The notes: a model not told the origin generated them from the letters alone. Counted from the stretch's first letter, positions 13,187 to 57,603 are shown. The stretch: 64,000 nt of DNA from an uncultured Steroidobacter sp. (GCA_964457865.1 CAYWHG010000001.1:54193-118192), one strand, 5' to 3'. Translations and numbers: made by a program.

Positions 13187-14206
13187 CTAGAAAGTGATGA
13201 CCACCTTGCCGAAGTGCTTGCCGGTTTCCAGATAGCCGAGCGCCTTCTTCAGGTCGGCGAAAGGGAAGGTGCGGTCGATCACCGGCATCCGACGATGCAG
13301 TTCGATTGCCCGCATCAAATCCTGGTTCATCTCGCGCGAGCCGACGGCGATGGAGACAACCTCGATGCCGCGCTCGGCGTGTCTGATCTGGGTGAACTTA
13401 CCGCTGAGGTTGCCGACCGAGGCGATCCGTCCGCCGTCCCTGGTGGCGCGGATCGATTGCTGGATCGTCCCATCGCCGCCGACTTCGAGTACGTGATCGA
13501 CGCCACGGCCGCCGGTAAGGCGGAGGACCGCTTCGCCCCAGTCAGGCACCTGCTTGTAGTTGATGCCGTCCGAGGCGCCGAGCCTGAGCAGGCGCTTCAG
13601 CCTGGCGTCGTCGCTGGAAGTTGCGATGACCCGCGCGCCAGCCATCCTGGCGATCTGCAGGCCGAAGAGGGAGACGCCGCCGCTGCCCATGGTCAGTACG
13701 GAGTCGCCGGTCTTCAGGCGGCCCACCGATATCAGTGCATGCCAGGCGGTAACGCCGGCGCAAGGGGTGCAGGCTGCTTCCGCGTAAGACATGGAGTCGG
13801 GAATCGGCAGCAGGTCCGCCTCGTCATAGACCGCATATTCCAGCGCGACGCCGTCGACCTCACTCGACTTGGCCTTCCATCCCTTCCGCTCCGGGTCCAT
13901 TGGGCCGGTGTACCAACCCTCCATGTAGATTGTTAATACCCGGTCGCCGGGCTTGTAGGCAGTGACGTCGGCGCCGACCTCGACAACCTCGCCGGCTCCG
14001 TCAGAGAGCAGCACCTTCGGCAGAACGGGGTTGCGGAAGTAGACGCCCTTCAGGATTTTCAGATCACGGAAGTTGAGCGAGGCTGCTTTCATCCTGATCA
14101 ATACCTGGCGGCGTCCGGTTGGAGGAACCTCACGAGTCCGCTCCATGAGGCCGTCGTAGCCGATCTTCTCCAGTACGAAGGCCCTGGTAGTCCGGGTGCC
14201 AGTCAT
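13187..14206 (-). CDS. NAD(P)-dependent MDR-family (zinc-type ADH-like) oxidoreductase
   Basis: ASLNFRD, LSDGAGEV, GSGGVSLFGLQ and GKHFGKVVI. Confidence 0.88.
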   Translation of the reverse strand: MTGTRTTRAFVLEKIGYDGLMERTREVPPTGRRQVLIRMKAASLNFRDLKILKGVYFRNPVLPKVLLSDGAGEVVEVGADVTAYKPGDRVLTIYMEGWYTGPMDPERKGWKAKSSEVDGVALEYAVYDEADLLPIPDSMSYAEAACTPCAGVTAWHALISVGRLKTGDSVLTMGSGGVSLFGLQIARMAGARVIATSSDDARLKRLLRLGASDGINYKQVPDWGEAVLRLTGGRGVDHVLEVGGDGTIQQSIRATRDGGRIASVGNLSGKFTQIRHAERGIEVVSIAVGSREMNQDLMRAIELHRRMPVIDRTFPFADLKKALGYLETGKHFGKVVITF

Positions 14207-14235: not shown

Positions 14236-15126
14236 TCAGAAACGTGCCTGACGATCCTCCGAGACACCGAACTGCTTTTCGAGCGCCTGGACCTCTTCCA
14301 GGCCGAGCAGGGTGAAGAACTCGCGGAAGCTCATCACCTCTTTTGCCAGATTCTTCGCCGTACCTTCGGCTTTTAGCGTGTCCAGTACATTGCTCGCCGC
14401 CTTCACGGCTGCCAGCAACGTGAAGATCGGGTAGATCGCAATCCTGAAGCCCAGGCGTGCAATTTCATCCTTGTGCAGGAAGGGCGTCTTGCCGCTCGAG
14501 GCCATGTTGAAGATGGCGGGGCAGGAGAATGCCTTGGGAATGCGGGCGACCTGCTCCATCTCCGTGGGCGCCTCGACGAAGATTGCATCCGCTCCGGCAT
14601 CCGCATAAATCTTCGCGCGCTTGAGGGCGGCTTCGAATCCTTCCACCGCGAGCGCATCGGTGCGGGCGATGATCATGAAATCCGGGTCCGTGCGTGCCGA
14701 CATGGCCGCGCGGATCTTGGCGACCATTTCATCGGCAGGAACAATGGCCTTGCCGGCGAAATGACCGCAGCGTTTCGGGAGCTGCTGGTCCTCGATGTGG
14801 ATGGCCGCAACGTTTGCCTGTTCGAAGCGGCGCACCGTACGCATGACATTCATGACACCGCCGAATCCATCGTCAGCATCCGAAATCAGCGGCAGACCGG
14901 AGGCAGCGGCAATGCTGTTCGCGTTCTCGGCCATCTCCGTCAGGGTGATCACGCCCGTGTCTGGCTGGCCGAGCCGTACTGCGCATGTGCCTGCGCCCGA
15001 CATGTAGATTGCATCGAAACCCTTCTTCGCAACCAGTCGGGCGGTGACCGCATCCGAAACACCGGGGGCCATCAGAAGATCGCCAGTGGCGAGCAGTTTG
15101 CGCAGTCGGGTGGTGGGTCTTGTCAC
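14236..15126 (-). CDS. Isocitrate lyase/PEP mutase family lyase (methylisocitrate/dimethylmalate lyase-like)
   Basis: DADDGFGG, HIEDQ, PKRCGH and IIARTDA; GTG start overlaps the leuD-like stop. Confidence 0.88.
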   Translation of the reverse strand: MTRPTTRLRKLLATGDLLMAPGVSDAVTARLVAKKGFDAIYMSGAGTCAVRLGQPDTGVITLTEMAENANSIAAASGLPLISDADDGFGGVMNVMRTVRRFEQANVAAIHIEDQQLPKRCGHFAGKAIVPADEMVAKIRAAMSARTDPDFMIIARTDALAVEGFEAALKRAKIYADAGADAIFVEAPTEMEQVARIPKAFSCPAIFNMASSGKTPFLHKDEIARLGFRIAIYPIFTLLAAVKAASNVLDTLKAEGTAKNLAKEVMSFREFFTLLGLEEVQALEKQFGVSEDRQARF

Positions 15127-15635
15127 GGTTTTGCCTTTGCCTTGCTGGGTTCGATCAGTTCGAGCTTTTCCAGCAGCGTGAACACGCCGCCTTCCATCAT
15201 CAGGGAGCGCAGCTCGACGGGGATCGGGGTGATGGGAAGGGTTGCCCCTGTGTCTGTATTGGCTATGGTCCAGTTTTCCAGATCGATGCTGGCGTGCTGA
15301 CCTTCCTTGAACAGATCGTGCACGCCCGGACATTCCATCGCCACGAAACCGAAGTTCACGGCATTGCGGAAGAACAGCCCGTTGAGTGATTCGGCCAGCA
15401 TGCAGGCCAGTCCGACATTCTTGAGCGAGCGCGCCGCCGGGCGGCTCGATCCCATGCCGAAATTTCGCCCGCCGATGAGGATGTCGCCCTGCTGAACTTC
15501 TTTCACCCAGCCGGGCCGGTTCGCCTGAAATACGGCGCGCGCCTGATCTTCCTGGCTGGCGTAAGTCACTTCGCTCGGCACCATCAGATCGGTATTGATG
15601 TTGTCGCCGAACTTCCAGATCTTGCCGCGGATCAT
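15123..15635 (-). CDS. LeuD/DmdB-like hydratase small subunit
   Basis: GKIWKFGDNINTD, GGRNFGMGSSR and FFRNAVNFG; short type. Confidence 0.87.
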   Translation of the reverse strand: MIRGKIWKFGDNINTDLMVPSEVTYASQEDQARAVFQANRPGWVKEVQQGDILIGGRNFGMGSSRPAARSLKNVGLACMLAESLNGLFFRNAVNFGFVAMECPGVHDLFKEGQHASIDLENWTIANTDTGATLPITPIPVELRSLMMEGGVFTLLEKLELIEPSKAKAKP

Positions 15636-16882
15636 TGCAGCGCCCCCGGGTGGGTTATCTTGCCGGCGATCGCTGATGCGGCGACCGTGGCTGGAGATGC
15701 CATGTAGATACGTGCGGAGTTGTCTCCCATTCGTCCCTTGAAGTTGCGTGTGCTCGCCGTGATGCACGTTTCGTTGGGGCCGAGCACACCCATGTGTCCG
15801 CCGTAACAGGCGCCACAGGTGGCGGGAGTGACCACCGCACCGGCCTGAATGAGGGTTTGCAGATAACCGGCATTCGCGGCAGCCTGCATCACGGCTTGTG
15901 AGCTGGGTGTGATGAGGAAGCGCACACCCGTTGCGACATGCCTGCCCGCAACGATGCGCGCCGCCTCGGCGAGATCATCCAGCGTGCCGTTTGCGCAGGA
16001 CCCGATGAATGCCTGGTCGATGCGTACGCCTTCCACTTCCGAGATGGGGCGCGAGTTGTTGATCACCGTGTCGGGCAGTGCAACCAGCGGCTCCAGCGTA
16101 TCGAGTTCGATCGTGCGCCGGGCCCGATACTTTGCATTGGCGTCAGGGGTGACTGGGTTGAACTGCCGGTCCGTGCGCTCCTTCATGTAGTTGAGCAGCC
16201 GGTCGTCGGGCTCGAAGGTCACAAACTCGGCGCTCAGCTCGGCGCCCATCGCGGCGATCGTGCGCCGGGCATTCATGCTCAGTGACTGCATGCCTGGGCC
16301 GCCGTATTCGATGTTCTGGCCCGCGTGTTCGCCAAATTCATTGGCGATGTGCAGGAACAGGTCTTTCGCAGAGACGCCCGGCTGCAACTCGCCGACGAGG
16401 TCATAGCGGACGGTCTCGCCCACCTGGAACCAGGTCTTCCCGGTGGTCAGCGCGTAAATCATGTCGGGGTAGCCGATGCCGCGTGCGGCGGCATTGAAGG
16501 CGCCGCTCGCACAGGTGTGCGAATCGGAGCAGACAAGGACAGATCCGGGCAGGGCATAGCCCCTGTCGGCGACGACCGCATGACTGATGCCCTGATCGGG
16601 ACCAACATCGTGGAAGCGCCTGATCCCGAACTTTCTGACGAACTCGCGGCCGTAGCGATGTGCCTCCGCTGCGGCCTGGTCGGGCGCCGGAACGACGTGG
16701 TCGTAGATCACGGCGACTTTGTCGGGGTCGTGTACCTTGATGACTTCCTTGCGCAGGGTCTTGAAGAAGCTGGTGTCCAGCATCACCACGGTATCGACGT
16801 TGACCACGACGAAGTCGCCGGGACCAACACGGGTTCTGCCGCTGGCGCGCGCGAGGATCGCTTCTGCCATCGTCATGCTCAT
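15632..16882 (-). CDS. LeuC/DmdA-like [4Fe-4S] hydratase large subunit
   Basis: DHVVP, SDSHTC, IGSCANG, CGACYGG and STRNFKGRMG (three Fe-S Cys present). Confidence 0.9.
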   Translation of the reverse strand: MSMTMAEAILARASGRTRVGPGDFVVVNVDTVVMLDTSFFKTLRKEVIKVHDPDKVAVIYDHVVPAPDQAAAEAHRYGREFVRKFGIRRFHDVGPDQGISHAVVADRGYALPGSVLVCSDSHTCASGAFNAAARGIGYPDMIYALTTGKTWFQVGETVRYDLVGELQPGVSAKDLFLHIANEFGEHAGQNIEYGGPGMQSLSMNARRTIAAMGAELSAEFVTFEPDDRLLNYMKERTDRQFNPVTPDANAKYRARRTIELDTLEPLVALPDTVINNSRPISEVEGVRIDQAFIGSCANGTLDDLAEAARIVAGRHVATGVRFLITPSSQAVMQAAANAGYLQTLIQAGAVVTPATCGACYGGHMGVLGPNETCITASTRNFKGRMGDNSARIYMASPATVAASAIAGKITHPGALQ

Positions 16883-18045
16883 CAGGTGCCCTCCTTGCGT
16901 GCGCCGCTGAAGGCCAGCGATGCCAGCACCTCATCATGGTGCTCGCCCAGCCCGGGTGGTTGGCGGCGATAGGTCGGCTTCGAGCGGCTCATCTTGATCG
17001 GAGACGCCACGCCGCGGTACTCCTGAACTCCGACGATCATCTCGCGATGGACTGTGTGCGGATGTTGCACCGCCTCCCGAACGTTCTGTACTGCGCCGCA
17101 GGGGACGCCTGCCTTCATCAGTGTCTCGCTGATCTCTCGCGCATCGAACGCGGCGAGCCTGGTTTCAATGGCAACCTTCAGGGCATCTCGGTGTTCGTTG
17201 CGCAGCCCATTCGAAATGAAACGAGGATCGGCCGCCAGCTCCGGTGCGGCCAGTGTCTGACAGAGAATTTCGAACTGACCGTTGTTGCCGACCGCCAGAA
17301 AGATGGAACCGTTCTTTGCAGCGAAGCGATCGTAAGGCGTGATGTTCGGGTGCGCGCTGCCGGTGGGCCTGGGGACCTTGCCGGAGCGCAGGAAATTGGC
17401 CACAGACGGATGGAGCAGGGCCAGGCCGTTGTCGAACAGCGAGGACTCGATGACCTGTCCTTTGCCGGTGATGTCGCGGTCGCGCAAGGCCATCATGATG
17501 CCGAGGGCCGCATTGATGCCCGTCACGAGATCGATGATCGGGATGCCCAGCCGCAACGGATTGCCGTCGAGTTCACCGTTCACGCTCATCAGTCCGGTCA
17601 AGCCCTGCGCCACGGCGTCATAGCCCGGAAAGCCCCCGAGCGGGCCGTCTTCGCCGAAACCCGTGATCCAGCAATGCACGAGGCGCGGGTACAGCGCCTG
17701 CAATTTCGTCGGATGCAGTCCCCAGCGGCGCAGTGACCGCATCTTGAAGTTCTGCACCAGCACATCCGACTGCTCAAGCAGCTCGAACATGATGCGCTGA
17801 TCGGCAGAGGCATTCAGGTCCAGCACGATGCTGCGCTTGTTGCGATTCGCCCCTTCGAAGTAGGCGGCCGTGCCGTCGGTGAACGGCGGTCCCCAGGTCC
17901 GGGTTTCGTCGCCGTTCGGGGGCTCAACCTTGATGACATCCGCACCATGATCCCCGAGGATCTGTGCGCAGTACGGGCCCCCGAGCACGCGACTGAGATC
18001 GAGCACCTTGATGCCGTTCAAAGCCCCCGTGTTCTGTTCGCTCAT
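16882..18045 (-). CDS. Family III CoA transferase (CaiB/BaiF)
   Basis: KVLDLSRVLGGPYC, GADVIKVEPP, NRNKRSI and GYDAVAQG. Confidence 0.92.
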   Translation of the reverse strand: MSEQNTGALNGIKVLDLSRVLGGPYCAQILGDHGADVIKVEPPNGDETRTWGPPFTDGTAAYFEGANRNKRSIVLDLNASADQRIMFELLEQSDVLVQNFKMRSLRRWGLHPTKLQALYPRLVHCWITGFGEDGPLGGFPGYDAVAQGLTGLMSVNGELDGNPLRLGIPIIDLVTGINAALGIMMALRDRDITGKGQVIESSLFDNGLALLHPSVANFLRSGKVPRPTGSAHPNITPYDRFAAKNGSIFLAVGNNGQFEILCQTLAAPELAADPRFISNGLRNEHRDALKVAIETRLAAFDAREISETLMKAGVPCGAVQNVREAVQHPHTVHREMIVGVQEYRGVASPIKMSRSKPTYRRQPPGLGEHHDEVLASLAFSGARKEGT

Positions 18046-18070
18046 GCGAATTTATTCCTCTGTATCGATG

Positions 18071-19243
18071 TCAGTACGAGCGCGGCAGGTCGAGTGCCTT
18101 CTCTGAGATGAAGTTCATGATCATCTGCGGGCTCACGGGCGCGATGCGGGCGATGAAGCATTCGCGCAAATAGCGTTCGACGTGATACTCCTTCGAGTAC
18201 CCCATGCCGCCATGGGTCATCACGGCCGTCTGGCAGGCTTCGTAGGCCGCTTCCGCAGCAAGAAATTTTGCGCTGTTGGCCTCGACGGCGCAGGACTGGT
18301 CGGCGTCGTACTGCGAAGCGGCGTGTTCCATCATCAGTTCAGCTGCTGCGAGGTTCATCCAGCAGCGAGCCAACGGGTGCTGGATACCCTGGTTCTGACC
18401 GATCGGGCGGCCGAACACGTGGCGCTCCGTAGCGTATTGCGAGGCTTTCCGCAAAGCGGCATAGCCGAGCCCGATGGCCTCAGCCGCGATGAGAATGCGC
18501 TCGGGATTGAAGCCATGAAGTATCTGGCGAAAGCCGTTGCCTTCCTGACCGATCAGGTCATCGGCAGGCACACGCCAGTTCTCGAAGAACAGCATGTTCG
18601 AATCGACCGCGTGGCGACCGAGCTTGTCGATCTCGCGTATCTCCACGGCCTGTCGATCCAGCGGCGTGTAGAAAAGGCTCAGGCCGTCAGTGGGCTGTCT
18701 GACCTGATCGATGGGCGTGGTACGCACCAGGATCAAGGCCTTGTGCGCGACCTGCGCCGTCGAAATCCAGATCTTGGATCCTGTCAGCCGATAGCAGTCG
18801 CCGTCGCGCACGGCACGGCTTTGCAGTCGCGCAGTGTCGAGGCCCGAGTTCGCTTCCGTCACGGCAAAACAGGCTTTTTCCCGGCCTGCGATGAGCGGCG
18901 GCAGCATGCGCTGCTTCTGCGCGTCGGTGCCGAACTTCACCACAGGCTGCAGGCCGAAGATGTTCATGTGGACTGCTGAGGCGCCACTCATCCCGGCGCC
19001 GGACTGCGCAATCGTGCGCATCATCACGGCAGCTTCCCGGATGCCGAGACCGGAGCCGCCATACGCCTCCGGCATGGCGATACCCAGCCAGCCGCCGTCG
19101 GCGACGGCGCGGTAGAACTCTTCGGGAAATTCTCCGGAGATGTCGTGGGCTCTCCAGTAGTCGTCGCCAAACTGGCTGCAGAGCTGCTCTATCGGGCCGA
19201 CGATCTCCTGTCGGCGCGAGTTCGTGTGTATTGAATCCAGCAT
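18071..19243 (-). CDS. Acyl-CoA dehydrogenase
   Basis: FAVTEANSGLD, GSKIWIS, RHVFGRPIGQNQGIQ and HGGMGY; start re-assigned to ATG 19243. Confidence 0.92.
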   Translation of the reverse strand: MLDSIHTNSRRQEIVGPIEQLCSQFGDDYWRAHDISGEFPEEFYRAVADGGWLGIAMPEAYGGSGLGIREAAVMMRTIAQSGAGMSGASAVHMNIFGLQPVVKFGTDAQKQRMLPPLIAGREKACFAVTEANSGLDTARLQSRAVRDGDCYRLTGSKIWISTAQVAHKALILVRTTPIDQVRQPTDGLSLFYTPLDRQAVEIREIDKLGRHAVDSNMLFFENWRVPADDLIGQEGNGFRQILHGFNPERILIAAEAIGLGYAALRKASQYATERHVFGRPIGQNQGIQHPLARCWMNLAAAELMMEHAASQYDADQSCAVEANSAKFLAAEAAYEACQTAVMTHGGMGYSKEYHVERYLRECFIARIAPVSPQMIMNFISEKALDLPRSY

Positions 19244-19290
19244 TGGAGGCAAGCCATCGAATAGACGTGTCGTGCGCATTGTAGCACGAC

Positions 19291-19305
19291 GTTCGATAAT
19301 GAGAC
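19291..19305. promoter_or_regulatory. IclR (PcaR/PobR)-like operator next to a minus-strand extended -10
   Basis: GTTCGATAATGAGAC resembles the recalled PcaR-type GTTCGATAATCGCAC. On the minus strand it is followed by GTGCTACAAT, upstream of the acyl-CoA dehydrogenase operon. Confidence 0.5.
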
Positions 19306-19354
19306 ACAAGTGGAGGACGGGCAAAAGTAAGGCGTGGTCCGCGGCCTATACGTG

Positions 19355-19404
19355 TATGAGAATGTCATTCCCATCTTGACAATGCTACGGTTGAGACAGA
19401 TGCT
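19355..19404 (+). promoter_or_regulatory. Operator palindrome plus sigma70-like promoter of the nicD-like gene
   Basis: ATGAGAATGTCATTCCCAT (19356-19374) immediately before TTGACA (19376-19381)-N17-GATGCT. The 32-bp block is duplicated, inverted, at 55023-55054. Confidence 0.8.
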
Positions 19405-19697
19405 TGCGCGAATGTTTCCGGGCGTGCGTAAGTGCGCGATTACTGCCGAATGCCGGGCCACTGACAATCCGGGTGTGGCCTCTTGCTGCAGTTTTGAGTC
19501 GCGCGAGCGCCTTGCTCTTCGCGCAGCTGCTGAAGCAGTGACTGATGTTCGCTGAAGGACTCGGATTTCCTCCACCAAATGCGTCGGCGGTAGTCGCTGG
19601 TCTATCCAGTGGGATCACAGCGAGCGGCGATGGCAACGCACGGACAGCCGGACGATGGTGTTGTCCCAACGGGTTCGCAGCTTGCTGGAGGAAAGTC

Positions 19698-20501
19698 TTG
19701 AAACTCATCAGGTTCATTCACGGCCACACCCTTCGCGCCAACAATATCCGGCAGCACTACCTGCGCTTCGGTGGCGAAGGACATCCGTTGATTCTCATAC
19801 CGGGCATCATGACGCCTGCCCCCATCTGGGATTTCGTCGGCGATCGCCTCGGTGCTGCTTACGATACATACGTCACCGACGTTCGCGGGCGCGGTCTTTC
19901 CGAGACGGGTGATGAACTGGACTACAGCCTGGATGCCTACGCCGACGACGTCGCAGGTCTTGCCGATGCACTCGGATTCAGGAAATACAGCATCGTCGGT
20001 CATTCCATGGGCGCACGCATCGCGCTGCGCACAGCAAGCAAGTACGGCGACCCGATCGATCAGATCGTGATGATCGACCCGCCGGTCAGTGGACCGGGCA
20101 GACGGCGTTATCCTGTCCCGCTGGATCGCGTCGTCGACCGGCTCGCGAAGGCCAGGCGCGGCGAGCTGTGGGAAGCCACCAAGGACGAGCCATTCTGGAG
20201 TGATCACTCCAAACGTGTGCGCGCAGAGTGGACCCATACATGCAATGAAGTCGCGGTGCTCACCACGCATCGCAACTTCCACGAGGAAGACATCTTTCCC
20301 GACTTCAACAAAACGAAAGTCCGCACCTCCCTCATGGTGGCCACGCGAGGCGGCACGATCGAGCAGGCGGACATTGAGGACATCAAGACACGCATGCCGT
20401 CGATCACGGTCGACCACGTCGAGGCAGGACACATGATTCCGTTCGAGAATGAGGACGGTTTCTTCGCCAGCCTGGGTAGATTGCTGGGCACGAAAATCTG
20501 A
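19698..20501 (+). CDS. nicD: N-formylmaleamate deformylase-like alpha/beta hydrolase
   Basis: ANNIRQHYLRFGG, DVRGRGLS, GHSMGAR, DPPVSGPGRRRYP, RAEWTHTC and AGHMIP closely follow recalled P. putida NicD; TTG start after GGAGGA. Confidence 0.85.
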   Translation: MKLIRFIHGHTLRANNIRQHYLRFGGEGHPLILIPGIMTPAPIWDFVGDRLGAAYDTYVTDVRGRGLSETGDELDYSLDAYADDVAGLADALGFRKYSIVGHSMGARIALRTASKYGDPIDQIVMIDPPVSGPGRRRYPVPLDRVVDRLAKARRGELWEATKDEPFWSDHSKRVRAEWTHTCNEVAVLTTHRNFHEEDIFPDFNKTKVRTSLMVATRGGTIEQADIEDIKTRMPSITVDHVEAGHMIPFENEDGFFASLGRLLGTKI

Positions 20502-20521
20502 GCGTTGCGCGTTCTGGCGGA

Positions 20522-21169
20522 ATGAGCGAGACAGTGAGTTCAATGAATCTTCTTGATTTCAGTGATGCAAGCGATCTGGCATTGCTGGTCTGCGACCTGC
20601 AGAACGACTTCCTGCACCCCGACGGGATATACGCAAAATCGGGCATCGCCGCAGCACACGTCAGCGCGGTCACGCCTCGTGTCCGGCGCGTTGCCGATGC
20701 GGTACGACACGCCGGCGGAGTGGTAGTCGGGACCATGTTTACTCTGGTACCAGGTCGCGCGGGCGAGCCGCTCGTTGCGGCGCATCTCAAGCAGATGCGT
20801 CCCTTCTTGGATGAAGGTCATTTCGCGCCGGGCTCATGGGGTCAGGCAATGCTCGACGAACTGGGCCCCTTCGATGCCACGGTGGAGAAGATTGCCTACT
20901 CGGCCTTCTATCAGACTCGGCTCGAATGGCTTCTGCGCCGGCTTGCGGTCACCCGACTGGCAATTGCGGGTATCGTCACCCAGGGCGGGGTTGCATCAAC
21001 GCTTCGTGATGCGGCTGTCCGCGACTACTCAATCATTCTTCTTGAAGACGGCTGTGCCGCTTTCGACAACTCAATGCATCAGGCGGCCGTAACATCGCTG
21101 AGCGGTGCAGCGACAGTAATGTCCTGTGAGGCGCTTGCGCAGGGCCTTGCAGCCGCCGCCAGAGATTAG
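20522..21169 (+). CDS. Isochorismatase-family hydrolase lacking the nucleophilic Cys
   Basis: CDLQNDF (Asp) and EKIAYSAF (Lys) present, but GIVTQGGVAST has Gly at the usual Cys position. Confidence 0.85.
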   Translation: MSETVSSMNLLDFSDASDLALLVCDLQNDFLHPDGIYAKSGIAAAHVSAVTPRVRRVADAVRHAGGVVVGTMFTLVPGRAGEPLVAAHLKQMRPFLDEGHFAPGSWGQAMLDELGPFDATVEKIAYSAFYQTRLEWLLRRLAVTRLAIAGIVTQGGVASTLRDAAVRDYSIILLEDGCAAFDNSMHQAAVTSLSGAATVMSCEALAQGLAAAARD

Positions 21170-21255
21170 GCGGATTTCGCCGTGCAGTGTTGGCGAACGG
21201 CGAGGATCGAGTAGTTCAGCCATGGGAAGTCGGAAAAAAATGTCCACACGGTTTT

Positions 21256-22122
21256 ATGACTAAACGGAATTCATCGATGGGCAGTGCTCAACTGAGTGTG
21301 GTTCCGACGGACGAGCAGCGGCCAGTCAAACAGACGGCCGTGAGCAAGGCACGTCGCAACGGGCCCCGCTCGGTCACGCGGCTGCTCAATGTGCTGCGGG
21401 TTCTCGCGCTCTCTGAAGAAAGTGTGAGCCTTGCTCAGCTCAGTCTTGCTACGCGGACCCCGAAGACGAGCCTGCTCGCGTTGCTGCGTACGCTTGTCGA
21501 TGCCGGGTATATCGTGCAGCGAGAAGCCGGATACATGCTCGGTGCCGAGGCATTTGCGCTCGGTTCTGTGATCATTGGACAGCGCCGGCTCGCGCAACTG
21601 GCTCGACCAGTGTTGCAGAGACTGGCGGAGCAGAGCGGCGAGACCATCCTGCTCGCTGAACTCTCTGCGGACTCGACTCATGCGATCTACATCGACAAGG
21701 TCGAGAGCACTCGCGCGATTCGCTTCATCGCAAGTGTGGGCGAGCGTCGACCTCTCTATGGCTCGGCCTGTGGTCGCGCCCTTCTTGCCTTCCAGGACGA
21801 CGCATTTCGCAAGAACTATCTCTCCGGGACCAGGTTCATTCCGCTGAATCCGAACAAGAAGATGATGAGTCGCGGCGAGTTGGAGGGCATCATCAAGGAC
21901 ATCCGGAAGAACTCGCTCGCGACGACCAACGAGGATGTGAACGAAGGGGTGGTTGGCTTCGGCTCGCCAATCTTCGGGCGTGATGGCGAGACCGTGGCGG
22001 CGATCGCAATCGGGGCGCCTGTTGTTCGTGGATTGCAGCAGGCCAAGGTGATGTCACGCCTGGTGAAGGACGGCGCCCGGGAGATTTCGCGGACTCTGGG
22101 ATACATCGAGAAGGATGCCTAG
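21256..22122 (+). CDS. IclR-family transcriptional regulator
   Basis: N-terminal HTH (RSVTRLLNVLRVL..LSLATRTPKTSLLALLRTL), SACGRALLA and GFGSPIF..AAIAIGAP; start uncertain. Confidence 0.9.
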   Translation: MTKRNSSMGSAQLSVVPTDEQRPVKQTAVSKARRNGPRSVTRLLNVLRVLALSEESVSLAQLSLATRTPKTSLLALLRTLVDAGYIVQREAGYMLGAEAFALGSVIIGQRRLAQLARPVLQRLAEQSGETILLAELSADSTHAIYIDKVESTRAIRFIASVGERRPLYGSACGRALLAFQDDAFRKNYLSGTRFIPLNPNKKMMSRGELEGIIKDIRKNSLATTNEDVNEGVVGFGSPIFGRDGETVAAIAIGAPVVRGLQQAKVMSRLVKDGAREISRTLGYIEKDA

Positions 22123-34662: not shown

Positions 34663-34689
34663 ATGAGAATATCATTCCGAAAAGAGAAC
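34663..34689. promoter_or_regulatory. Operator between HiPIP/cytochrome (-) and SBP-2 (+)
   Basis: ATGAGAATATCATTCCGAA matches the 19356 site at 16/19 and is followed by a third half-site AAGAGAAC. Confidence 0.6.
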
Positions 34690-45864: not shown

Positions 45865-48800
45865 ATGACACTTCTGCCGGTTTCGCTCGAAGACAAGTAT
45901 CGTCCGGATGCGCAACGCATCTACCTGTCGGGGACCCAGGCCCTGGTACGCCTGCCGCTCCTGCAGCGGGACCGCGATCGTCGATCGGGACTGAACACGG
46001 CGGGATTCATCTCCGGCTATCGCGGTTCGCCGCTCGGCATGTACGACCACGCGCTGTGGCGGGCACAAAGTCATCTGAAGGCGCACGACATCACCTTCGT
46101 GCCGGGACTCAATGAAGACCTCGCCGCAACTGCTGTGTGGGGTACTCAACAGGTAGGGCAGTCCGCAAGTTCAAAGGTGCGCGGCGTCTTCGGGATCTGG
46201 TACGGCAAGGGTCCGGGTGTGGACCGCTCGCTGGATGCGCTCAAGCATGCCAATGCCGCGGGCACTTCGCCCTACGGCGGTGTGCTTGCCATCGCGGGCG
46301 ATGATCATGGGGCGCAGTCGTCCACGCTGCCGCATCAGAGCGAACAGGCTTTCGCTGCGGCCATGATGCCGGTGCTCAATCCGTCGAGCATGCAGGAGTA
46401 TCTGGATCTCGGTCTCTACGGCTTCGCACTGTCGAGGTACTCAGGCTGCTGGGTGGGGTTCAAGGCCACGTCCGAGATCGTGGAGTGTTCCGCCTCCATT
46501 GTCAGTGATCCGGAACGAGCGAGCGTTGTCGTACCGACCGACTTCGAGATGCCGTCGGGAGGACTCGGTGTGCGATGGCCGGATTCGCCGCTCGAGAAGG
46601 AGCGGCGGCTGTTCGGGCCGAAGATGGATGCGGTTGCCGCCTTCGCCCGGGCCAATGCGCTCGATCGCATCGTGCTCGATGCGCCAACCGCGCGGCTTGG
46701 CATCATGACCACCGGCAAGGCCTATCTGGAGGTGCGCCAGGCGCTGACCGACCTTGGGATCGATGACTCGATGGCTGTGCGGATCGGTCTGCGCCTTTAC
46801 AAGGTCGCCATGGTCTGGCCGCTGGAGCAGAGCGGTGTGCATCGGTTTGCCGATGGTCTCGATGAGATCCTGGTGGTGGAAGAGAAGCGCGGTTTCCTCG
46901 AGGAGCAACTCACGCGCATTCTCTACAACATGGAGGCCCGGCGCCGGCCGTCGATCGTCGGCAAGCGTGACGAGAATGGTCGAATGCTGCTGTCGAGCGA
47001 AGGTGAGTTGACGCGAACCATGGTTGCCCGTGCGCTGCTGACGCGGCTGCGCCGATTGGGTTGTCACGACGCTCATCTTGAGCAAAGGCTGGCACGTCTG
47101 GAGGCGTTCGACAGGAACGCCGCTTCGCCATCAGCTGGCGTGCAGCGCACGCCGTTCTTCTGCCCGGGATGTCCGCACAATTCATCGACGAAAGTGCCCG
47201 AAGGCAGTCGTGCGCTGGCGGGGATCGGCTGTCACGGCATGGCGATCTATGTGCCGAGCCGGCGCACCACCACCATGTCTCACATGGGCGGGGAAGGTGC
47301 GAGTTGGATCGGTGAGTCGCCCTTCACGAACGAAGCGCATGTGTTCCAGAACCTGGGGGACGGGACTTATGCACACTCCGGCGTGCTGGCGCTGAGAGCG
47401 GCGGCCGCCGCTGGTGTGAACATCACCTACAAGATCCTCTACAACGATGCGGTTGCGATGACGGGTGGTCAGCCTGTCGAGGGTCAGCTGAGTCTGGCGC
47501 AGATCGCTCAGCAGGTTGCTGCCGAAGGAGCGAAGCGCATCGTGGTGGTGACGGATGCGCCTGCAAAGTATCCGGCGAACATCTTTCCGCGCGGTGTGAC
47601 CATCCACCATCGGCGCGAACTCGATCTCGTGCAGCGCGAGTTGCGCGAGATCAAGGGATTGACGGTCCTTCTCTATGACCAGACGTGCGCCGCGGAATTG
47701 CGCCGTCGCCGCAAGCGCGGACGCGAGGCCGACCCGACCCGTCGCGTGTTCATCAATGCGTCGGTGTGCGAGGGATGCGGAGACTGTTCAACTGCATCGA
47801 ACTGTATTGCCGTCCAGCCGCTGGAAACCGAACTCGGTCGCAAGCGGCAGATCGACCAGTCACAATGCAACAAGGATTTCTCGTGCGTGGAGGGATTCTG
47901 CCCGAGTTTCGTGAGCATCCAGGGCGGAAAGCTCAGGAGTGCTGCCGAACCGGTGCCGCTGCCAGCCGGTCTCGCCGAATCACTGCCGTCGCCTGCTGTA
48001 CTCAACGCTGATAGCTACAACATTCTCGTCACCGGCATTGGGGGCACCGGCGTAGTCACCGTGGGCGCGTTGGTTGCGATGGCGGCCCATCTGGAAGGCA
48101 AGGGGTGCAGCGTTCTCGATGTCACCGGGCTCGCCCAGAAGAACGGTGCCGTGACGAGTCACATCCGCATCACGCAGACGCCCGGGGACGTGATGGCGGG
48201 ACGAATTCCCAGCGGCGCCGCTGACCTCATTCTCGGCTGCGACATGGTGGTCGCTGCCAGCGCGGCATCGCTGTCGCGTGTCGATGGCGGGCGAACCCGG
48301 GCCATCGTCAATTCGGACGTCCAGCCGACCGCCAGCTTCGTCATGAATCCGGACATCGATCTCGGTGCGGACGGAAAGAGGGATGCATTGCGTGCTGCGC
48401 TGGGGGAGGAGAGGATCGATTTCATCGATGCCACCCGTATCGCAACGGCACTGCTGGGTGATGCGATCGCCGCGAACACGTTCCTGCTCGGCTTTGCGTA
48501 TCAGAAAGGTGCCATTCCACTGACGCTGGCGTCCATCCAGCGTGCAATGGAGCTGAACAATGTCAGTGTCGAACTCAACAAGCGGGCGTTTCTGTGGGGT
48601 CGGCTTGCGGCCCACGATGACGCGGCCGTCATGGATGCGGCCAGTCCGCGTCTGCGCAGCAAGGCACGCACGGCACAGACACTCGATGAACTGATCGCGC
48701 GTCGCGCCGCGTTTCTCGCGGCGTATCAGAATGTCGCCTGGGCCGAGCGCTATCGCAGGGTGGTTATCGCGGTCAGGCAGCATGAACAGCGAATTGTGCC

Positions 48801-49320
48801 GGGTCAGGAAAAAATCGCAGAGGCGGTGGCGAACAATCTGTTCAAGCTGATGGCGTACAAGGATGAGTACGAAGTGGGCAGGCTCTACGCGCAAACTGAT
48901 TTCCGCGAGACACTTGCGCGACAGTTCGATGGGGCGCCCCGGCTCACCTTCCATCTCGCGCCGCCGATATTCGCATCGGTCGACCCTGCAACGGGTCATC
49001 CGCGCAAGCGCGAATTCGGCGGGTGGATGATGCCGGTATTCAGTGGCCTTGCGAGACTGCGATTTCTGCGCGGCACGCTGTTCGATCCGTTTGGCTGGAC
49101 GGCTGAGCGACGTGCCGAGCGGCGCCTGATCGATGACTACGAGCGCAGCATGCTGGAGATCACATCCAGAATGACAGCCGAACAGTGTCCGCTGGTGCTG
49201 AAGTTCGCGAGCGTTCCGGATGCCATCCGGGGCTTCGGGCATGTCAAGGCAAGATCAATGGCGCTGGCCGAGAAGGAAGCGGCAAGGCTGCACGCTGAAA
49301 TGGCCGCACTGATCCCGTAG
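45865..49320 (+). CDS. Indolepyruvate:ferredoxin oxidoreductase family protein (fused alpha/beta)
   Basis: SGYRGSPLG, NEDLAATAVWG, FCPGCPHN, CEGCGDC..C..C Fe-S motif, GLAQKNGAV and YKDEYEV. Confidence 0.92.
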   Translation: MTLLPVSLEDKYRPDAQRIYLSGTQALVRLPLLQRDRDRRSGLNTAGFISGYRGSPLGMYDHALWRAQSHLKAHDITFVPGLNEDLAATAVWGTQQVGQSASSKVRGVFGIWYGKGPGVDRSLDALKHANAAGTSPYGGVLAIAGDDHGAQSSTLPHQSEQAFAAAMMPVLNPSSMQEYLDLGLYGFALSRYSGCWVGFKATSEIVECSASIVSDPERASVVVPTDFEMPSGGLGVRWPDSPLEKERRLFGPKMDAVAAFARANALDRIVLDAPTARLGIMTTGKAYLEVRQALTDLGIDDSMAVRIGLRLYKVAMVWPLEQSGVHRFADGLDEILVVEEKRGFLEEQLTRILYNMEARRRPSIVGKRDENGRMLLSSEGELTRTMVARALLTRLRRLGCHDAHLEQRLARLEAFDRNAASPSAGVQRTPFFCPGCPHNSSTKVPEGSRALAGIGCHGMAIYVPSRRTTTMSHMGGEGASWIGESPFTNEAHVFQNLGDGTYAHSGVLALRAAAAAGVNITYKILYNDAVAMTGGQPVEGQLSLAQIAQQVAAEGAKRIVVVTDAPAKYPANIFPRGVTIHHRRELDLVQRELREIKGLTVLLYDQTCAAELRRRRKRGREADPTRRVFINASVCEGCGDCSTASNCIAVQPLETELGRKRQIDQSQCNKDFSCVEGFCPSFVSIQGGKLRSAAEPVPLPAGLAESLPSPAVLNADSYNILVTGIGGTGVVTVGALVAMAAHLEGKGCSVLDVTGLAQKNGAVTSHIRITQTPGDVMAGRIPSGAADLILGCDMVVAASAASLSRVDGGRTRAIVNSDVQPTASFVMNPDIDLGADGKRDALRAALGEERIDFIDATRIATALLGDAIAANTFLLGFAYQKGAIPLTLASIQRAMELNNVSVELNKRAFLWGRLAAHDDAAVMDAASPRLRSKARTAQTLDELIARRAAFLAAYQNVAWAERYRRVVIAVRQHEQRIVPGQEKIAEAVANNLFKLMAYKDEYEVGRLYAQTDFRETLARQFDGAPRLTFHLAPPIFASVDPATGHPRKREFGGWMMPVFSGLARLRFLRGTLFDPFGWTAERRAERRLIDDYERSMLEITSRMTAEQCPLVLKFASVPDAIRGFGHVKARSMALAEKEAARLHAEMAALIP

Positions 49321-54971: not shown

Positions 54972-55003
54972 GCCACTTGTCGGATGCCAATGTGAGGGAG
55001 GCA

Positions 55004-55054
55004 AGCATCCGGTGCCCGTGCGAGCATTGTCAAGATGGGAATGTCATTCTCATA
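55004..55054 (-). promoter_or_regulatory. Operator plus promoter of the monooxygenase; near-identical to the nicD promoter
   Basis: ATGGGAATGTCATTCTCAT (55035-55053). On the minus strand TTGACA-N18-GATGCT. 31/32 identity with the reverse complement of 19355-19386. Confidence 0.8.
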
Positions 55055-55121
55055 ACCGTACGCGCTATACTACGGGTCAGTTGGATCTGTCCTCGCAGCC
55101 TGAGCGCGACAGGAGCATTTC

Positions 55122-57571: not shown

Positions 57572-57603
57572 TTGACTCACCAATAACAGAATGTCATTTT
57601 CAT
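57572..57603 (+). promoter_or_regulatory. -35 (TTGACT) and operator upstream of the nicX-like gene
   Basis: AACAGAATGTCATTTTCAT (57585-57603), 15/19 to the 19356 site. Confidence 0.6.

What the first reader, a model, noticed from the sequence alone, without database searches (positions are those of the whole stretch)
14236..21169. Lower pathway: NicD-like deformylase linked to a LeuCD-like hydratase and ICL-family lyase instead of maleate isomerase
Seen: nicD-like and isochorismatase-like genes share a divergent control region with acyl-CoA DH, CoA transferase, leuC-like, leuD-like and lyase genes. No maleate cis-trans isomerase (NicE/MaiA) is in the window. Known: the canonical maleamate pathway ends with isomerisation to fumarate. 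LeuCD homologs act as maleate, citraconate and dimethylmaleate hydratases, and Eubacterium barkeri pairs DmdAB with an ICL-family 2,3-dimethylmalate lyase. Inference: an aerobic route for substituted pyridines giving alkyl-maleate, hydrated to alkyl-malate and then cleaved or oxidised. I do not recognise this combination as described.
Basis: inference. Interest (0 to 1): 0.8.

Follow-up and report, generated by a model that had tools for sequence, protein, structure and literature searches.

The report
Pyridine breakdown without maleate isomerase
A soil bacterium's gene island for breaking down pyridine compounds lacks the usual last enzyme, maleate isomerase; in its place it probably uses an unusual cysteine-less hydrolase, an iron-sulfur hydratase and a carbon-carbon lyase, three genes that also sit together in many unrelated bacteria.

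Summary
On the minus strand lie an acyl-CoA dehydrogenase, a family III CoA-transferase, LeuC/LeuD-like subunits, an ICL-family lyase with KRCGH, and an MDR reductase. Divergent from them are a true NicD homologue, an isochorismatase-family protein and IclR.

No maleate isomerase (NicE) exists in this genome, or, as a close homologue, in its 100%-complete relative. All 8 other NicX-bearing genomes sampled have NicE beside NicX.

The shared intergenic region is weak evidence. Its only conserved element is a ~57-nt promoter/operator copied from the monooxygenase promoter and pointing at nicD. In related clusters elsewhere, nicD-isochorismatase-iclR is the tail of a monooxygenase operon with no LeuCD nearby.

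The real link is the isochorismatase-family protein. It has Gly for the catalytic Cys, as do 120 of its 120 closest homologues. In unrelated bacteria it sits in operons with an ICL-family lyase (6/6 sampled genomes) and a LeuCD-type hydratase (5/6).

I conclude, at about 0.5 confidence, that this is a NicE-independent lower pathway: half-amide, then (alkyl)maleate, then (alkyl)malate, then cleavage. The CoA enzymes would handle the released acid. Whether the substrate carries a substituent is not shown.

Verdict: partly supported; a new variant of a known pathway; interest 0.6.

The parts
13187..14206 (-). MDR / Zn-ADH-family reductase, the last gene of the minus-strand operon. In P. soli an enoyl-CoA hydratase occupies this position.
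   Evidence: Pfam ADH_N and ADH_zinc_N. Weak NCBIfam hits to quinone and acryloyl-CoA reductases, all below cut-off. Lies 30 nt after the lyase stop. P. soli context.
14236..15126 (-). ICL/PEP-mutase-superfamily C-C lyase, 296 aa, a distinct subfamily
   Evidence: PF13714 at 2e-49. Motif PKRCGH. TIGR02317 prpB scores 313 bits, below its 354 cut-off. About equally distant from solved MICL, petal death protein and 2,3-dimethylmalate lyase, at 204-223 bits. GTG start overlaps the LeuD stop.
15123..15635 (-). LeuD-like small subunit, 170 aa
   Evidence: TIGR02087 (LeuD/DmdB family) scores 123 bits against a cut-off of 109. GSSR motif present. The specificity loop reads PSE-VTY where M. jannaschii IPMI has ARYLVY and HacB has GPYLRT, so it has no Arg.
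15632..16882 (-). LeuC-like large subunit, 416 aa, archaeal type
   Evidence: NF001614 scores 462 bits and TIGR02086 scores 440, both above cut-off. PDB 4KP1 IPM/citramalate isomerase at 3e-97. Cys contexts GSCANG and CGACYG.
16882..18045 (-). Family III (CaiB/BaiF) CoA-transferase of the dicarboxylate type
   Evidence: PF02515 at 1e-119. Best NCBIfam hit is succinate-glutarate CoA-transferase at 347 bits, below its 750 cut-off. PDB relatives are 4ED9, SUGCT and YfdE.
18071..19243 (-). Acyl-CoA dehydrogenase, 390 aa, short-chain type
   Evidence: Three ACAD Pfam domains. Best NCBIfam hit is acryloyl-CoA reductase AcrC at 231 bits, below cut-off. 74% identical to the ACAD beside LeuCD in Bosea sp. 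Root381.
19349..19408 (+). Promoter plus palindromic operator (ATGAGAATGTCATTCCCAT, then TTGACA, 17 nt, GATGCT), oriented towards nicD. It is a copy of the monooxygenase promoter at 55001-55060.
   Evidence: 38 nt at 92% identity as an inverted repeat. About 57 nt align. It is the only block of this intergenic region that is conserved in P. soli.
19698..20501 (+). nicD, N-formylmaleamate deformylase homologue, 267 aa; the only copy in the genome
   Evidence: PDB 4L0C at 2e-63. 49% identical to M. loti NicD, and a single hit in the genome. GHSMG nucleophile elbow. TTG start after a GGAGGA ribosome-binding site.
20543..21169 (+). Cys-less isochorismatase-family protein, here called Isoch(G): D25 and K123 kept, G156 in place of the nucleophile Cys
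   Evidence: PF00857 at 1e-35. NicF (PDB 3UAO) matches only at 3e-4. Alignment with Cys-bearing NicF proteins. All 120 closest homologues carry D-K-G.
21187..22122 (+). IclR-family regulator, the probable binder of the palindromic operator. The true start may be at 21277.
   Evidence: Pfam HTH_IclR and IclR_C. It follows nicD-Isoch(G) in L120 as well. In G013 the orthologue is flanked by operator sites.
34663..34681 (.). Operator copy upstream of an NMT1-type binding-protein gene
   Evidence: In G013 the orthologous site precedes NMT1b followed by the IOR-like gene.
45865..49320 (+). Fused 2-oxoacid:ferredoxin oxidoreductase-like protein (POR + DUF6537)
   Evidence: Pfam. Kept next to the LeuB-type gene in G013. 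A 50% homologue lies beside Isoch(G)-LeuCD-lyase in L205.
49334..50449 (-). Stand-alone LeuB-type 3-alkylmalate dehydrogenase paralogue
   Evidence: TIGR00169 leuB scores 400 bits against a cut-off of 353; tartrate/D-malate DH TIGR02089 scores 245, below its 470 cut-off. The housekeeping leuB and leuC lie on contig C100.
50618..50636 (.). Operator copy between the LeuB-type gene and an NMT1-type binding-protein gene
53775..55004 (-). Class A flavin monooxygenase. In related clusters it is the first gene of the nicD operon.
   Evidence: Pfam FAD_binding_3. 31% identical to M. loti NicC. FMO-NicD order in L117-L122.
55001..55060 (-). Original promoter/operator block of the monooxygenase gene
55122..57521 (+). 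Molybdenum hydroxylase large subunit
   Evidence: Pfam MoCoBD_1, MoCoBD_2 and Ald_Xan_dh_C.
57585..57603 (.). Operator copy upstream of nicX
   Evidence: conserved in G013.
57703..58761 (+). nicX1, 2,5-dihydroxypyridine 5,6-dioxygenase homologue of the E177Q clade
   Evidence: PDB 7CN3 at 1e-94 with the iron ligands intact. E177Q is found throughout this clade.
59499..64000 (+). Start of a second, paralogous module ('module B'): PimA-like dicarboxylate-CoA ligase, SDR and second ICL-family lyase. Beyond the window it continues with LeuC2, LeuD2, thiolase, ACAD2 and an MFS transporter.
   Evidence: Same order in G013.

Best explanation
The 7-kb stretch is the junction of two units inside an ~80-kb accessory pyridine-catabolic island. 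This genome shares the island with a Peristeroidobacter soli-like relative (G013).

Unit 1 is nicD, a Cys-less isochorismatase-family gene (Isoch(G)) and iclR. It is the detached tail of a monooxygenase-nicD-Isoch(G)-iclR operon and took a copy of that operon's promoter and operator with it.

Unit 2 is ACAD, CoA-transferase, LeuC, LeuD, ICL-family lyase and an MDR reductase.

Proposed route (every step after deformylation is inferred):
1. A NicX-type dioxygenase opens a 2,5-dihydroxypyridine-type ring.
2. NicD removes formate.
3. Isoch(G), and/or the Cys-bearing NicF encoded 63 kb away, turns the maleamate-type half-amide into a cis-unsaturated diacid, maleate or an alkyl-maleate.
4. No maleate isomerase exists, so the Fe-S LeuCD enzyme hydrates the diacid to a D-malate-type hydroxy acid.
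5. The lyase cleaves that acid by retro-aldol into glyoxylate or pyruvate plus a short carboxylic acid.
6. The CoA-transferase activates the acid and the ACAD oxidises its CoA ester. P. soli carries an enoyl-CoA hydratase at the end of the operon; this genome carries an MDR reductase there.

A LeuB-type dehydrogenase and a 2-oxoacid oxidoreductase-like protein belong to the same regulon and offer a parallel exit.
For: 1. NicD and NicX are genuine homologues.
2. NicE is absent from this genome. G013 has only a 27%-identical hit on another contig. By contrast 8 of 8 other NicX+ genomes have a 74-85%-identical NicE within 10 kb of NicX, and none of the 8 has this LeuC. Among metagenome loci of at least 6 kb, 39 of 49 canonical ones have NicE, against 0 of 5 from the E177Q clade.
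3. Isoch(G) follows nicD here, in P. soli and in the unrelated contig L120.
4. The same D-K-G subfamily sits in lyase-HyuB-HyuA-Isoch(G)-LeuC-LeuD operons. In L205 the matches are Isoch 74%, LeuC 78%, LeuD 67%, lyase 43% and IOR-like 50%. L206 and L207 pair it with the LeuC2 type. In a 400-genome sample, 6 of 6 carriers have the lyase beside it and 5 of 6 have a LeuCD.
5. Among 41 relatives, NicD and this LeuC occur in exactly the same 2 genomes. The nicD/ACAD junction persists although the island is otherwise rearranged.
6. A second lyase-LeuCD-ACAD module lies next to nicX1 in both genomes.
7. The lyase has KRCGH, LeuD has GSSR and LeuC has its Cys ligand contexts.
8. Regulon operators lie at nicD, the monooxygenase/Mo-hydroxylase pair, nicX and the LeuB-type gene, and most are conserved in G013.
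Against: - The promoter/operator block points at nicD. Nothing shows that the ACAD operon is co-induced.
- The nicD/LeuCD adjacency occurs in one lineage only, two related genomes, so it may reflect a single rearrangement.
- Sets like module A occur without any nic gene, each with its own importer or regulator: Bosea sp. Root381 (LysR, NMT1-ABC importer, lyase, ACAD, CoA-transferase, LeuCD) and a Rhodospirillaceae MAG.
- A protein that lacks the nucleophile Cys cannot hydrolyse an amide by the known NicF mechanism, so its step is unknown.
- Plain maleate would need neither the ACAD nor the CoA-transferase.
- No expression or biochemical data exist.
Confidence: 0.5

Rival explanations
1. Unrelated neighbours. 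The ACAD, CoA-transferase, LeuCD, lyase operon is a self-contained pathway for an imported C4-C7 organic acid, for example citraconate, methylsuccinate or a related alkyl-dicarboxylate. A rearrangement merely placed it next to the relocated nicD unit, and the fate of maleate in these genomes lies elsewhere.
For: Homologous modules occur without nic genes and with their own NMT1-ABC importer and LysR. An NMT1-type binding-protein gene lies next to module A here and in P. soli. No LeuC or lyase lies near NicX in 80 metagenome loci. No nic gene lies near 80 LeuC-family loci. The operator/promoter block serves nicD.
Against: It leaves both genomes with no route for maleate, although NicE is otherwise near-universal beside NicX. 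It does not explain why Isoch(G), which elsewhere is tied to LeuCD and the lyase, is the gene sitting between nicD and this module. Nor does it explain why a second lyase-LeuCD module abuts nicX1.
Confidence: 0.25
2. Same pathway, different chemistry. Isoch(G), LeuCD and the lyase do act after NicD, but not on maleate-type acids. Isoch(G) would use Asp/Lys acid-base chemistry, as isochorismatases do, on an enamide, enol or imide-type ring-cleavage product. LeuCD would then work as an isomerase on a tertiary hydroxy acid and the PrpB-like lyase would cleave the product. This is the PrpD-aconitase-PrpB logic of the methylcitrate cycle.
For: The nucleophile Cys is replaced by Gly in 120 of 120 homologues while Asp and Lys are invariant. 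A PrpD/MmgE-family gene accompanies the trio in L205-L207 and L210. The lyase scores highest on the prpB model, though below cut-off. NicX of this clade carries E177Q at a residue that contacts N1/O1 of the substrate (PMC7910607).
Against: NicD and NicX are otherwise conventional. No PrpD-like gene is in this island; the best genome hits are 26% identical and on other contigs. The LeuD loop has no Arg of the kind that binds a third carboxylate in homoaconitase.
Confidence: 0.17
3. Desaturation route for a saturated substrate, in the manner of benzylsuccinate or carnitine pathways. An alkylsuccinate is CoA-activated by the transferase and oxidised by the ACAD to an alkyl-maleyl or alkyl-fumaryl-CoA. 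The same transferase releases the free enoate, which LeuCD hydrates and the lyase cleaves.
For: Pairing a family III CoA-transferase with an ACAD is the BbsEF/BbsG and CaiB/CaiA pattern (established knowledge). The benzylsuccinate CoA-transferase subunit is among the solved relatives, 9FN0 at 2e-45. The gene order ACAD, CoA-transferase, LeuC, LeuD, lyase would then follow the reaction order.
Against: The Rhodospirillaceae module has the CoA-transferase but no ACAD. This reading gives NicD and Isoch(G) no connection to the module.
Confidence: 0.08

Closest known systems
Maleamate pathway of aerobic nicotinate degradation (Pseudomonas putida KT2440 nicC-X-D-F-E; Bordetella; Mesorhizobium loti pML2037 cluster, L086)
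   Same: It has a NicX-type Fe(II) ring-cleavage dioxygenase, a NicD alpha/beta-hydrolase deformylase, an isochorismatase-family gene after nicD, and a Mo hydroxylase plus a flavin monooxygenase upstream.
   Different: There is no NicE in the genome. The gene next to nicD lacks the NicF nucleophile Cys. The cluster is split and interleaved with LeuCD, lyase and CoA-dependent modules. The regulator is IclR-type with its own palindromic operator, not MarR-type NicR. Uptake is by NMT1-type ABC systems.
DmdAB (2,3-dimethylmaleate hydratase) plus Dml (2,3-dimethylmalate lyase) of Eubacterium barkeri nicotinate fermentation
   Same: A two-subunit archaeal-type LeuCD-family Fe-S hydratase is paired with an ICL/PEP-mutase-family lyase, in a pyridine-degrading context. 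LeuD falls in the NCBIfam 'LeuD/DmdB family'.
   Different: The context here is aerobic and oxidative (NicX), not the reductive fermentation route. None of the other fermentation genes was seen in the island. I could not fetch the DmdAB or Dml sequences for a direct comparison. The solved fungal dimethylmalate lyase (3FA3) is no closer to this lyase than MICL or petal death protein.
Maleate hydratase to D-malate route of the hydrolytic gentisate pathway (Pseudomonas alcaligenes NCIMB 9867 HbzIJ; P. pseudoalcaligenes maleate hydratase). Cited from my own knowledge, not checked here.
   Same: A LeuCD-like hydratase replaces cis-trans isomerisation for maleate or citraconate arising from ring cleavage.
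   Different: That route belongs to an aromatic pathway, not a pyridine pathway, and has no ICL-family lyase, CoA-transferase or ACAD in the operon. Sequence relatedness could not be tested.
Methylcitrate cycle core PrpD - aconitase - PrpB
   Same: It uses dehydration and rehydration by an aconitase-family enzyme, followed by cleavage by a PrpB-like lyase. PrpD-like genes accompany the Isoch(G)-LeuCD-lyase trio in other genomes.
   Different: The lyase scores below the prpB equivalog cut-off. No PrpC or PrpD is in this island. The hydratase is LeuCD-type, not AcnB or AcnD.
N-methylhydantoinase (HyuAB) plus N-carbamoylsarcosine amidase of creatinine degradation. Cited from my own knowledge.
   Same: The related operons pair an ATP-dependent HyuA/HyuB ring hydrolase with an isochorismatase-family protein.
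   Different: N-carbamoylsarcosine amidase uses a Cys nucleophile, while this subfamily has Gly. The related operons also add LeuCD and a lyase.

Membership tests
NicD, N-formylmaleamate deformylase | Alpha/beta-hydrolase with a Ser nucleophile elbow and close sequence similarity to characterised NicD | tested here: met
   PDB 4L0C at 2e-63 over 252 residues. 49% identical to the NicD of a canonical nic cluster. GHSMG motif.
NicD, N-formylmaleamate deformylase | Genomic association with a NicX dioxygenase | tested here: met
   Subfamily members at 61-72% identity lie within about 7 kb of NicX. Here NicX1 is 37 kb away under the same operator.
NicD, N-formylmaleamate deformylase | Deformylase activity on N-formylmaleamate | not testable with these tools
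   Needs an enzyme assay.
NicF, maleamate amidohydrolase (isochorismatase-like Cys hydrolase) | Asp-Lys-Cys catalytic triad | tested here: not met
   D25 and K123 are present, but G156 replaces the Cys (GIVTQGGVAST against TTSGCIRAT). NicF 3UAO matches only at E=3e-4. The protein is therefore not filed as NicF.
Isochorismatase proper (EntB/PhzD vinyl-ether hydrolases) | Closest sequence relatives are isochorismatases; Asp general acid with no Cys | tested here: inconclusive
   It has no Cys and keeps the Asp. However its nearest solved relatives are Cys amidases (6XJ4 at 2e-16, RutB, biuret hydrolase), while EntB, VibB and PhzD score only 1e-4 to 1e-7.
Archaeal-type LeuCD / HacAB / DmdAB hydro-lyases | Two subunits; family models above cut-off; three Cys ligand contexts in the large subunit; GSSR in the small subunit | tested here: met
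   TIGR02086 scores 440 against a cut-off of 410, NF001614 scores 462 against 385, TIGR02087 scores 123 against 109. Motifs seen.
Biosynthetic isopropylmalate isomerase (LeuCD equivalog) | Scores above the LEU2 and leud equivalog cut-offs; sits in a leu operon | tested here: not met
   TIGR02083 scores 384, below its 611 cut-off; TIGR02084 scores 114, below 246. The housekeeping leuC and leuB are on contig C100. The specificity loop differs from IPMI and HacB.
ICL/PEP-mutase superfamily, lyase branch (MICL, Dml, petal death protein) | K-[KR]-C-G-H gating-loop motif with the catalytic Cys | tested here: met
   EDQQLPKRCGH. Solved lyases score 186-223 bits.
PrpB, 2-methylisocitrate lyase equivalog | Score above the curated equivalog cut-off | tested here: not met
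   TIGR02317 scores 312.7, below 354.4; NF008455 scores 263, below 353.
NicE / MaiA, maleate cis-trans isomerase | A homologue present in the genome | tested here: not met
   No hit at E <= 0.01 in G000. The best hit in G013 is 27% identical at 3e-10. The control record scored 4e-167, and the 8 other NicX+ genomes scored 1e-119 or better.
Maleate hydratase (HbzIJ type) | Sequence orthology to HbzIJ; activity on maleate | not tested
   No reference sequence was reachable with the tools. Activity needs an assay.

The most novel reading that the evidence does not exclude
The Cys-less isochorismatase-family protein, a LeuCD-type Fe-S hydratase and an ICL-family lyase form a widespread, undescribed common lower pathway for ring-opened N-heterocycles. 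Different front ends would feed it: NicX/NicD here, ATP-dependent HyuAB-type ring hydrolases in many Alphaproteobacteria, and possibly CE4-type hydrolases elsewhere. The D-K-G enzyme would carry out an amide or enamide conversion by a mechanism not known for this fold. In the E177Q NicX clade this trio would replace the NicF/NicE end of the maleamate pathway.
Probability: 0.35. Interest if true: 0.8.

Novelty: new variant of a known kind. Interest (0 to 1): 0.6.

Why it matters
The maleamate pathway is the textbook end of aerobic nicotinate, nicotine, picolinate and hydroxypyridine degradation. In my samples its last enzyme, maleate isomerase, sits beside NicX almost without exception. A clade of NicX clusters that consistently lacks it implies a different, uncharacterised way of returning the ring carbon to central metabolism.

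If the proposed route is right, three things follow:
- It assigns a function to a large Cys-less branch of the isochorismatase fold, currently annotated as 'cysteine hydrolase' or 'ureidoacrylate peracid hydrolase'.
- It assigns a function to many orphan 'isopropylmalate dehydratase' and 'methylisocitrate lyase' annotations in soil bacteria.
- It would help predict which organisms can mineralise substituted pyridines.

Tried and rejected
- **Pfam PF17645 as a NicE probe.** It rang in no control genome, so it was uninformative. I replaced it with the NicE protein from the M. loti plasmid cluster, which gave a working positive control.
- **NicX His105Phe as a sign of changed specificity.** Rejected. 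The canonical M. loti NicX and the Variovorax NicX proteins also have Phe, and the H105F variant of P. putida NicX keeps its activity (PMC7910607). Only E177Q is specific to this clade, and both NicX paralogues carry it.
- **The LeuB-type gene as a DmlA-type D-malate dehydrogenase.** Not supported. It passes the leuB cut-off and fails the tartrate/D-malate dehydrogenase model.
- **A tricarboxylate (aconitate or homoaconitate) substrate for LeuCD, including an isonicotinate/citrazinate-type route recalled from memory.** Weakened, because the LeuD loop lacks the Arg that binds a third carboxylate. Not excluded.
- **Looking for nic genes around 80 LeuC-family genome loci, and for LeuCD or lyase genes around 80 NicX metagenome loci.** Neither search found any.
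- **Sigma-70 consensus scan of the region.** No hits.
- **Literature searches.** Searches for maleate hydratase, dimethylmalate lyase and NicX together with isopropylmalate dehydratase found no paper describing this combination.

Full report
**What is there**

The window is G000:C1:54193-118192 of a 5.3-Mb draft genome (96% complete, 376 contigs). Its closest named relative is Peristeroidobacter soli, with 88% identity in LeuC.

Between 13.2 and 19.2 kb the minus strand carries a tightly packed operon:
- an acyl-CoA dehydrogenase (ACAD), 18071-19243;
- a family III CoA-transferase, 16882-18045;
- a LeuC-like subunit, 15632-16882, and a LeuD-like subunit, 15123-15635;
- an ICL/PEP-mutase-family lyase, 14236-15126;
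- an MDR-type reductase, 13187-14206.

The stop and start codons overlap between lyase and LeuD, LeuD and LeuC, and LeuC and the CoA-transferase.

Divergently transcribed are nicD (19698-20501), an isochorismatase-family gene (20543-21169) and an IclR-family regulator gene (21187-22122).

**What the parts are**

The alpha/beta hydrolase is a real NicD homologue. It matches the solved P. putida deformylase 4L0C at 2e-63. It is 49% identical to the NicD of a canonical nicC-D-E-F-X cluster on Mesorhizobium loti pML2037. It is the only copy in the genome.

LeuC and LeuD pass the curated cut-offs for the archaeal IPMI/HacAB/DmdAB subfamilies but fail the biosynthetic equivalogs. The housekeeping leuC and leuB lie on another contig. 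The LeuD specificity loop resembles neither isopropylmalate isomerase nor homoaconitase, and it has no Arg.

The lyase carries the lyase-branch motif PKRCGH. It scores below the prpB cut-off. It is about equally distant from solved methylisocitrate lyases, petal death protein and 2,3-dimethylmalate lyase.

The CoA-transferase resembles dicarboxylate-type family III enzymes such as SUGCT and YfdE. The ACAD is of a generic short-chain type.

The isochorismatase-family protein keeps Asp25 and Lys123 but has Gly156 where NicF and other amidases have the nucleophile Cys. This confirms an earlier first-stage note.

**The wider island**

The window also holds the following genes:
- a flavin monooxygenase, 53775-55004;
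- a Mo-hydroxylase large subunit, 55122-57521;
- a NicX homologue, 57703-58761, matching 7CN3 at 1e-94 with its iron ligands intact;
- a LeuB-type dehydrogenase, 49334-50449, which passes the leuB cut-off and not the tartrate/D-malate model;
- a fused 2-oxoacid oxidoreductase-like gene, 45865-49320.

Downstream of nicX1, after one short minus-strand ORF, a second module begins. In order it is: PimA-like CoA ligase, SDR, second ICL-family lyase, LeuC2, LeuD2, thiolase, ACAD2, MFS transporter. It runs past the end of the window.

Further along the contig lies a second nic-like cluster: Mo hydroxylase L/M/S subunits, an ABC importer, NicX2, a Cys-bearing NicF, a NicC-like monooxygenase and an amidase. 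It has no NicD.

A same-genus genome, G013, is 100% complete, and its contig has the same length as the P. soli contig. It shares the whole ~80-kb island at 65-90% protein identity. Several parts are rearranged, but the ACAD/nicD junction and the adjacency of nicX1 to the second module are kept. Among 41 relatives, NicD and this LeuC occur in exactly these two genomes. The island is therefore accessory.

**Regulation**

A 38-nt inverted repeat links 19349-19386 with 55023-55060. The alignment extends to about 57 nt: a palindromic operator (ATGAGAATGnCATTCCCAT), a TTGACA -35 box, and a GATGCT box 17-18 nt further on. One copy is oriented to drive nicD and the other to drive the monooxygenase.

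Further operator copies precede an NMT1-type binding-protein gene (34.67 kb), lie between the LeuB-type gene and another binding-protein gene (50.63 kb), and precede nicX1 (57.59 kb). The sites at nicD, the binding-protein gene, the monooxygenase/Mo-hydroxylase pair and nicX recur in G013.

Within the nicD/ACAD intergenic region, this block is the only segment conserved between the two genomes. A regulon therefore exists. Whether it includes the ACAD operon is not shown.

**How nicD came to lie there**

The nicD subfamily (60-93% identity) is found elsewhere in compact clusters of this form: binding protein, NicX and Mo hydroxylase on one strand; monooxygenase, NicD, Isoch(G) or an amidase, and IclR on the other. 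None has LeuCD, a lyase or an ACAD nearby (L117-L122).

In L120 the order monooxygenase-NicD-Isoch(G)-IclR is intact, and its isochorismatase carries the same Gly. In the Peristeroidobacter lineage, then, nicD-Isoch(G)-iclR is a detached operon tail that took a copy of its promoter with it.

**Absence of maleate isomerase**

Using the M. loti NicE as probe, this genome gives no hit at E <= 0.01. G013 gives only a 27%-identical hit on another contig, and the control record scores 4e-167.

In an even sample of 300 genomes of the phylum, 8 others carry NicX. All 8 have a NicE that is 74-85% identical to the probe and lies within 10 kb of NicX. None of the 8 has this LeuC.

Among 80 NicX-containing metagenome loci, 39 of 49 canonical loci of at least 6 kb include NicE. 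None of 5 loci from the clade with Gln at position 177 does. The absence is therefore real, unusual, and a property of this NicX clade.

Of the two NicX substitutions the first stage noted, His105Phe carries no weight. The canonical M. loti NicX has it too, and the H105F variant of the P. putida enzyme is active (PMC7910607). Glu177Gln is found throughout the clade.

**The link that holds**

All 120 closest homologues of the isochorismatase-family protein have Asp, Lys and Gly at the three positions. This is a conserved Cys-less subfamily, not a decayed gene.

Its members elsewhere lie in operons of the form (ABC importer, PrpD-like), ICL-family lyase, HyuB, HyuA, Isoch(G), LeuC, LeuD:
- In L205 the neighbours are the closest non-Peristeroidobacter relatives of this window's proteins: LeuC 78%, LeuD 67%, Isoch 74%, lyase 43% and the 2-oxoacid oxidoreductase-like protein 50%.
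- In L206 and L207 the partner is the LeuC2/LeuD2 type.
- In a 400-genome sample, six genomes from three families carry the subfamily. All six have the lyase and HyuAB beside it. Five have a LeuCD in the cluster, and one of those is cut off by a contig end.

So the protein that follows nicD in pyridine clusters is, in unrelated lineages and in different gene orders, a fixed partner of exactly the hydratase-lyase pair that lies head-to-head with it here. This is independent comparative support for a pathway connection between NicD and LeuCD-lyase.

Earlier notes of this scan describe lyase-LeuCD operons with other ring-opening front ends. They point the same way, but I did not check them.

**Most likely mechanism**

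Shown: the gene content, the homologies, the motifs, the absence of NicE, the operator regulon and the neighbourhood associations.

Inferred:
1. NicX opens a 2,5-dihydroxypyridine-type ring, and NicD removes formate.
2. Isoch(G), and/or the Cys-bearing NicF of the second cluster, converts the half-amide to a cis-enedioic acid.
3. LeuCD hydrates that acid to a D-malate-type hydroxy acid.
4. The lyase cleaves it to glyoxylate or pyruvate plus a short acid.
5. The CoA-transferase and the ACAD activate and oxidise that acid. P. soli adds an enoyl-CoA hydratase at the end of the operon; this genome has an MDR reductase there.
6. The LeuB-type dehydrogenase and the 2-oxoacid oxidoreductase-like protein provide a parallel exit to an acyl-CoA.

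Plain maleate would need neither CoA-dependent enzyme nor a LeuB-type rather than a DmlA-type dehydrogenase.

The chemistry of the Cys-less enzyme is unknown. It cannot use the NicF mechanism.

**Rivals**

- The minus-strand module may be an independent organic-acid pathway that merely lies next to nicD. Similar sets occur without nic genes, each with its own importer or regulator, in Bosea sp. Root381 and a Rhodospirillaceae MAG.
- The trio may act on a ring-cleavage product that is not of the maleate type, using methylcitrate-like logic. PrpD-like partners accompany it elsewhere.
- The CoA-transferase and ACAD may act first, on a saturated alkylsuccinate.

I put the coupled lower-pathway reading at about 0.5 and the rivals at 0.25, 0.17 and 0.08.

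**Novelty and verdict**

I found no paper that combines NicX/NicD with a LeuCD-type hydratase and an ICL-family lyase. The library does not cover subscription journals.

The individual enzyme families and the idea of hydrating maleate instead of isomerising it are known. The combination, the NicE-less NicX clade and the Cys-less isochorismatase partner are not. I class this as a new variant of a known kind, with interest 0.6.

Its interpretation is partly supported, for a better reason than the one it gave.

Noticed in passing
window 59499-64000, continuing to G000:C1:118467-124467 (L090 275-6275): A second, paralogous module lies downstream of nicX1, after one short minus-strand ORF. In order: PimA-like dicarboxylate-CoA ligase, SDR, second ICL-family lyase (46-51% identical to the first), bacterial-type LeuC2/LeuD2, thiolase, ACAD2, MFS transporter. 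The same order is kept in the related genome G013.
   Followed up: partly
G000:C1:130000-141500 (L090 11816-20000, L091 1-3251), outside the window: A second nic-like cluster: Mo hydroxylase L, M and S subunits, ABC importer, NicX2 (72% identical to NicX1), NMT1-type binding protein, a Cys-bearing NicF (GNTTSGCIRAS), a NicC-like monooxygenase and an amidase-signature amidase. It has neither nicD nor nicE. XdhC and CobS/CobT-like maturation genes precede it.
   Followed up: partly
window 19356-19374, 34663-34681, 50618-50636, 55035-55053, 57585-57603: A palindromic operator, consensus ATG(A/C)GAAT(G/A)nCATTC, lies at five promoter-proximal sites in the window. Sites at the corresponding nicD, binding-protein, monooxygenase/Mo-hydroxylase and nicX positions, and beside the iclR orthologue, recur in G013. 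It probably marks an IclR-controlled regulon.
   Followed up: partly
L205-L213 (other genomes): A widespread operon of unknown function in Alphaproteobacteria and others: ABC importer, MmgE/PrpD-like gene, ICL-family lyase, hydantoinase B and A, Cys-less isochorismatase-family gene, LeuC, LeuD. The isochorismatase-family members are annotated 'cysteine hydrolase' or 'ureidoacrylate peracid hydrolase' although they have no Cys.
   Followed up: partly
window 57703-58761 and L117, L118, L120, L125-L130: A NicX clade with Gln in place of Glu177. Its clusters use NMT1-type ABC importers and IclR regulators and have no NicE. Some carry a D-2-hydroxyacid dehydrogenase gene next to nicX (L117, L118).
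   Followed up: partly
window 1-10000: A separate aromatic-type catabolic block: PQQ/cytochrome c dehydrogenase, two FAH-family hydrolases, an aldehyde dehydrogenase, an HpaI-like (DHDPS-family) aldolase, MarR and a LigB-type extradiol dioxygenase.
   Followed up: no
L083 (Variovorax boronicumulans plasmid NZ_CP138497.1, 79768-81642 and flanks): A nicD-nicX pair (61% identical to NicX1) lies between a TcuA-like tricarballylate dehydrogenase gene and a thiolase / MaoC / SDR / two ACAD / acyl-CoA ligase block. No nicE or nicF is listed. This is another case of NicX beside CoA-dependent beta-oxidation-type genes.
   Followed up: no
window 11857-13122: Two small conserved ORFs with no Pfam family. 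One has a twin-arginine signal and a weak YciW/AhpD-like hit. They lie between the MDR reductase and an NMT1-type binding-protein gene, and in G013 they are conserved but sit elsewhere in the island.
   Followed up: no
window 41352-45825: A 2OG-Fe(II) oxygenase, a type-B carboxylesterase and an aldehyde dehydrogenase, with an MFS transporter and a TonB-dependent receptor upstream, lie inside the island. All except the receptor have matches in G013, where the oxygenase and esterase are duplicated. They may be upper-pathway trimming steps for an esterified or N/O-alkylated substrate.
   Followed up: no
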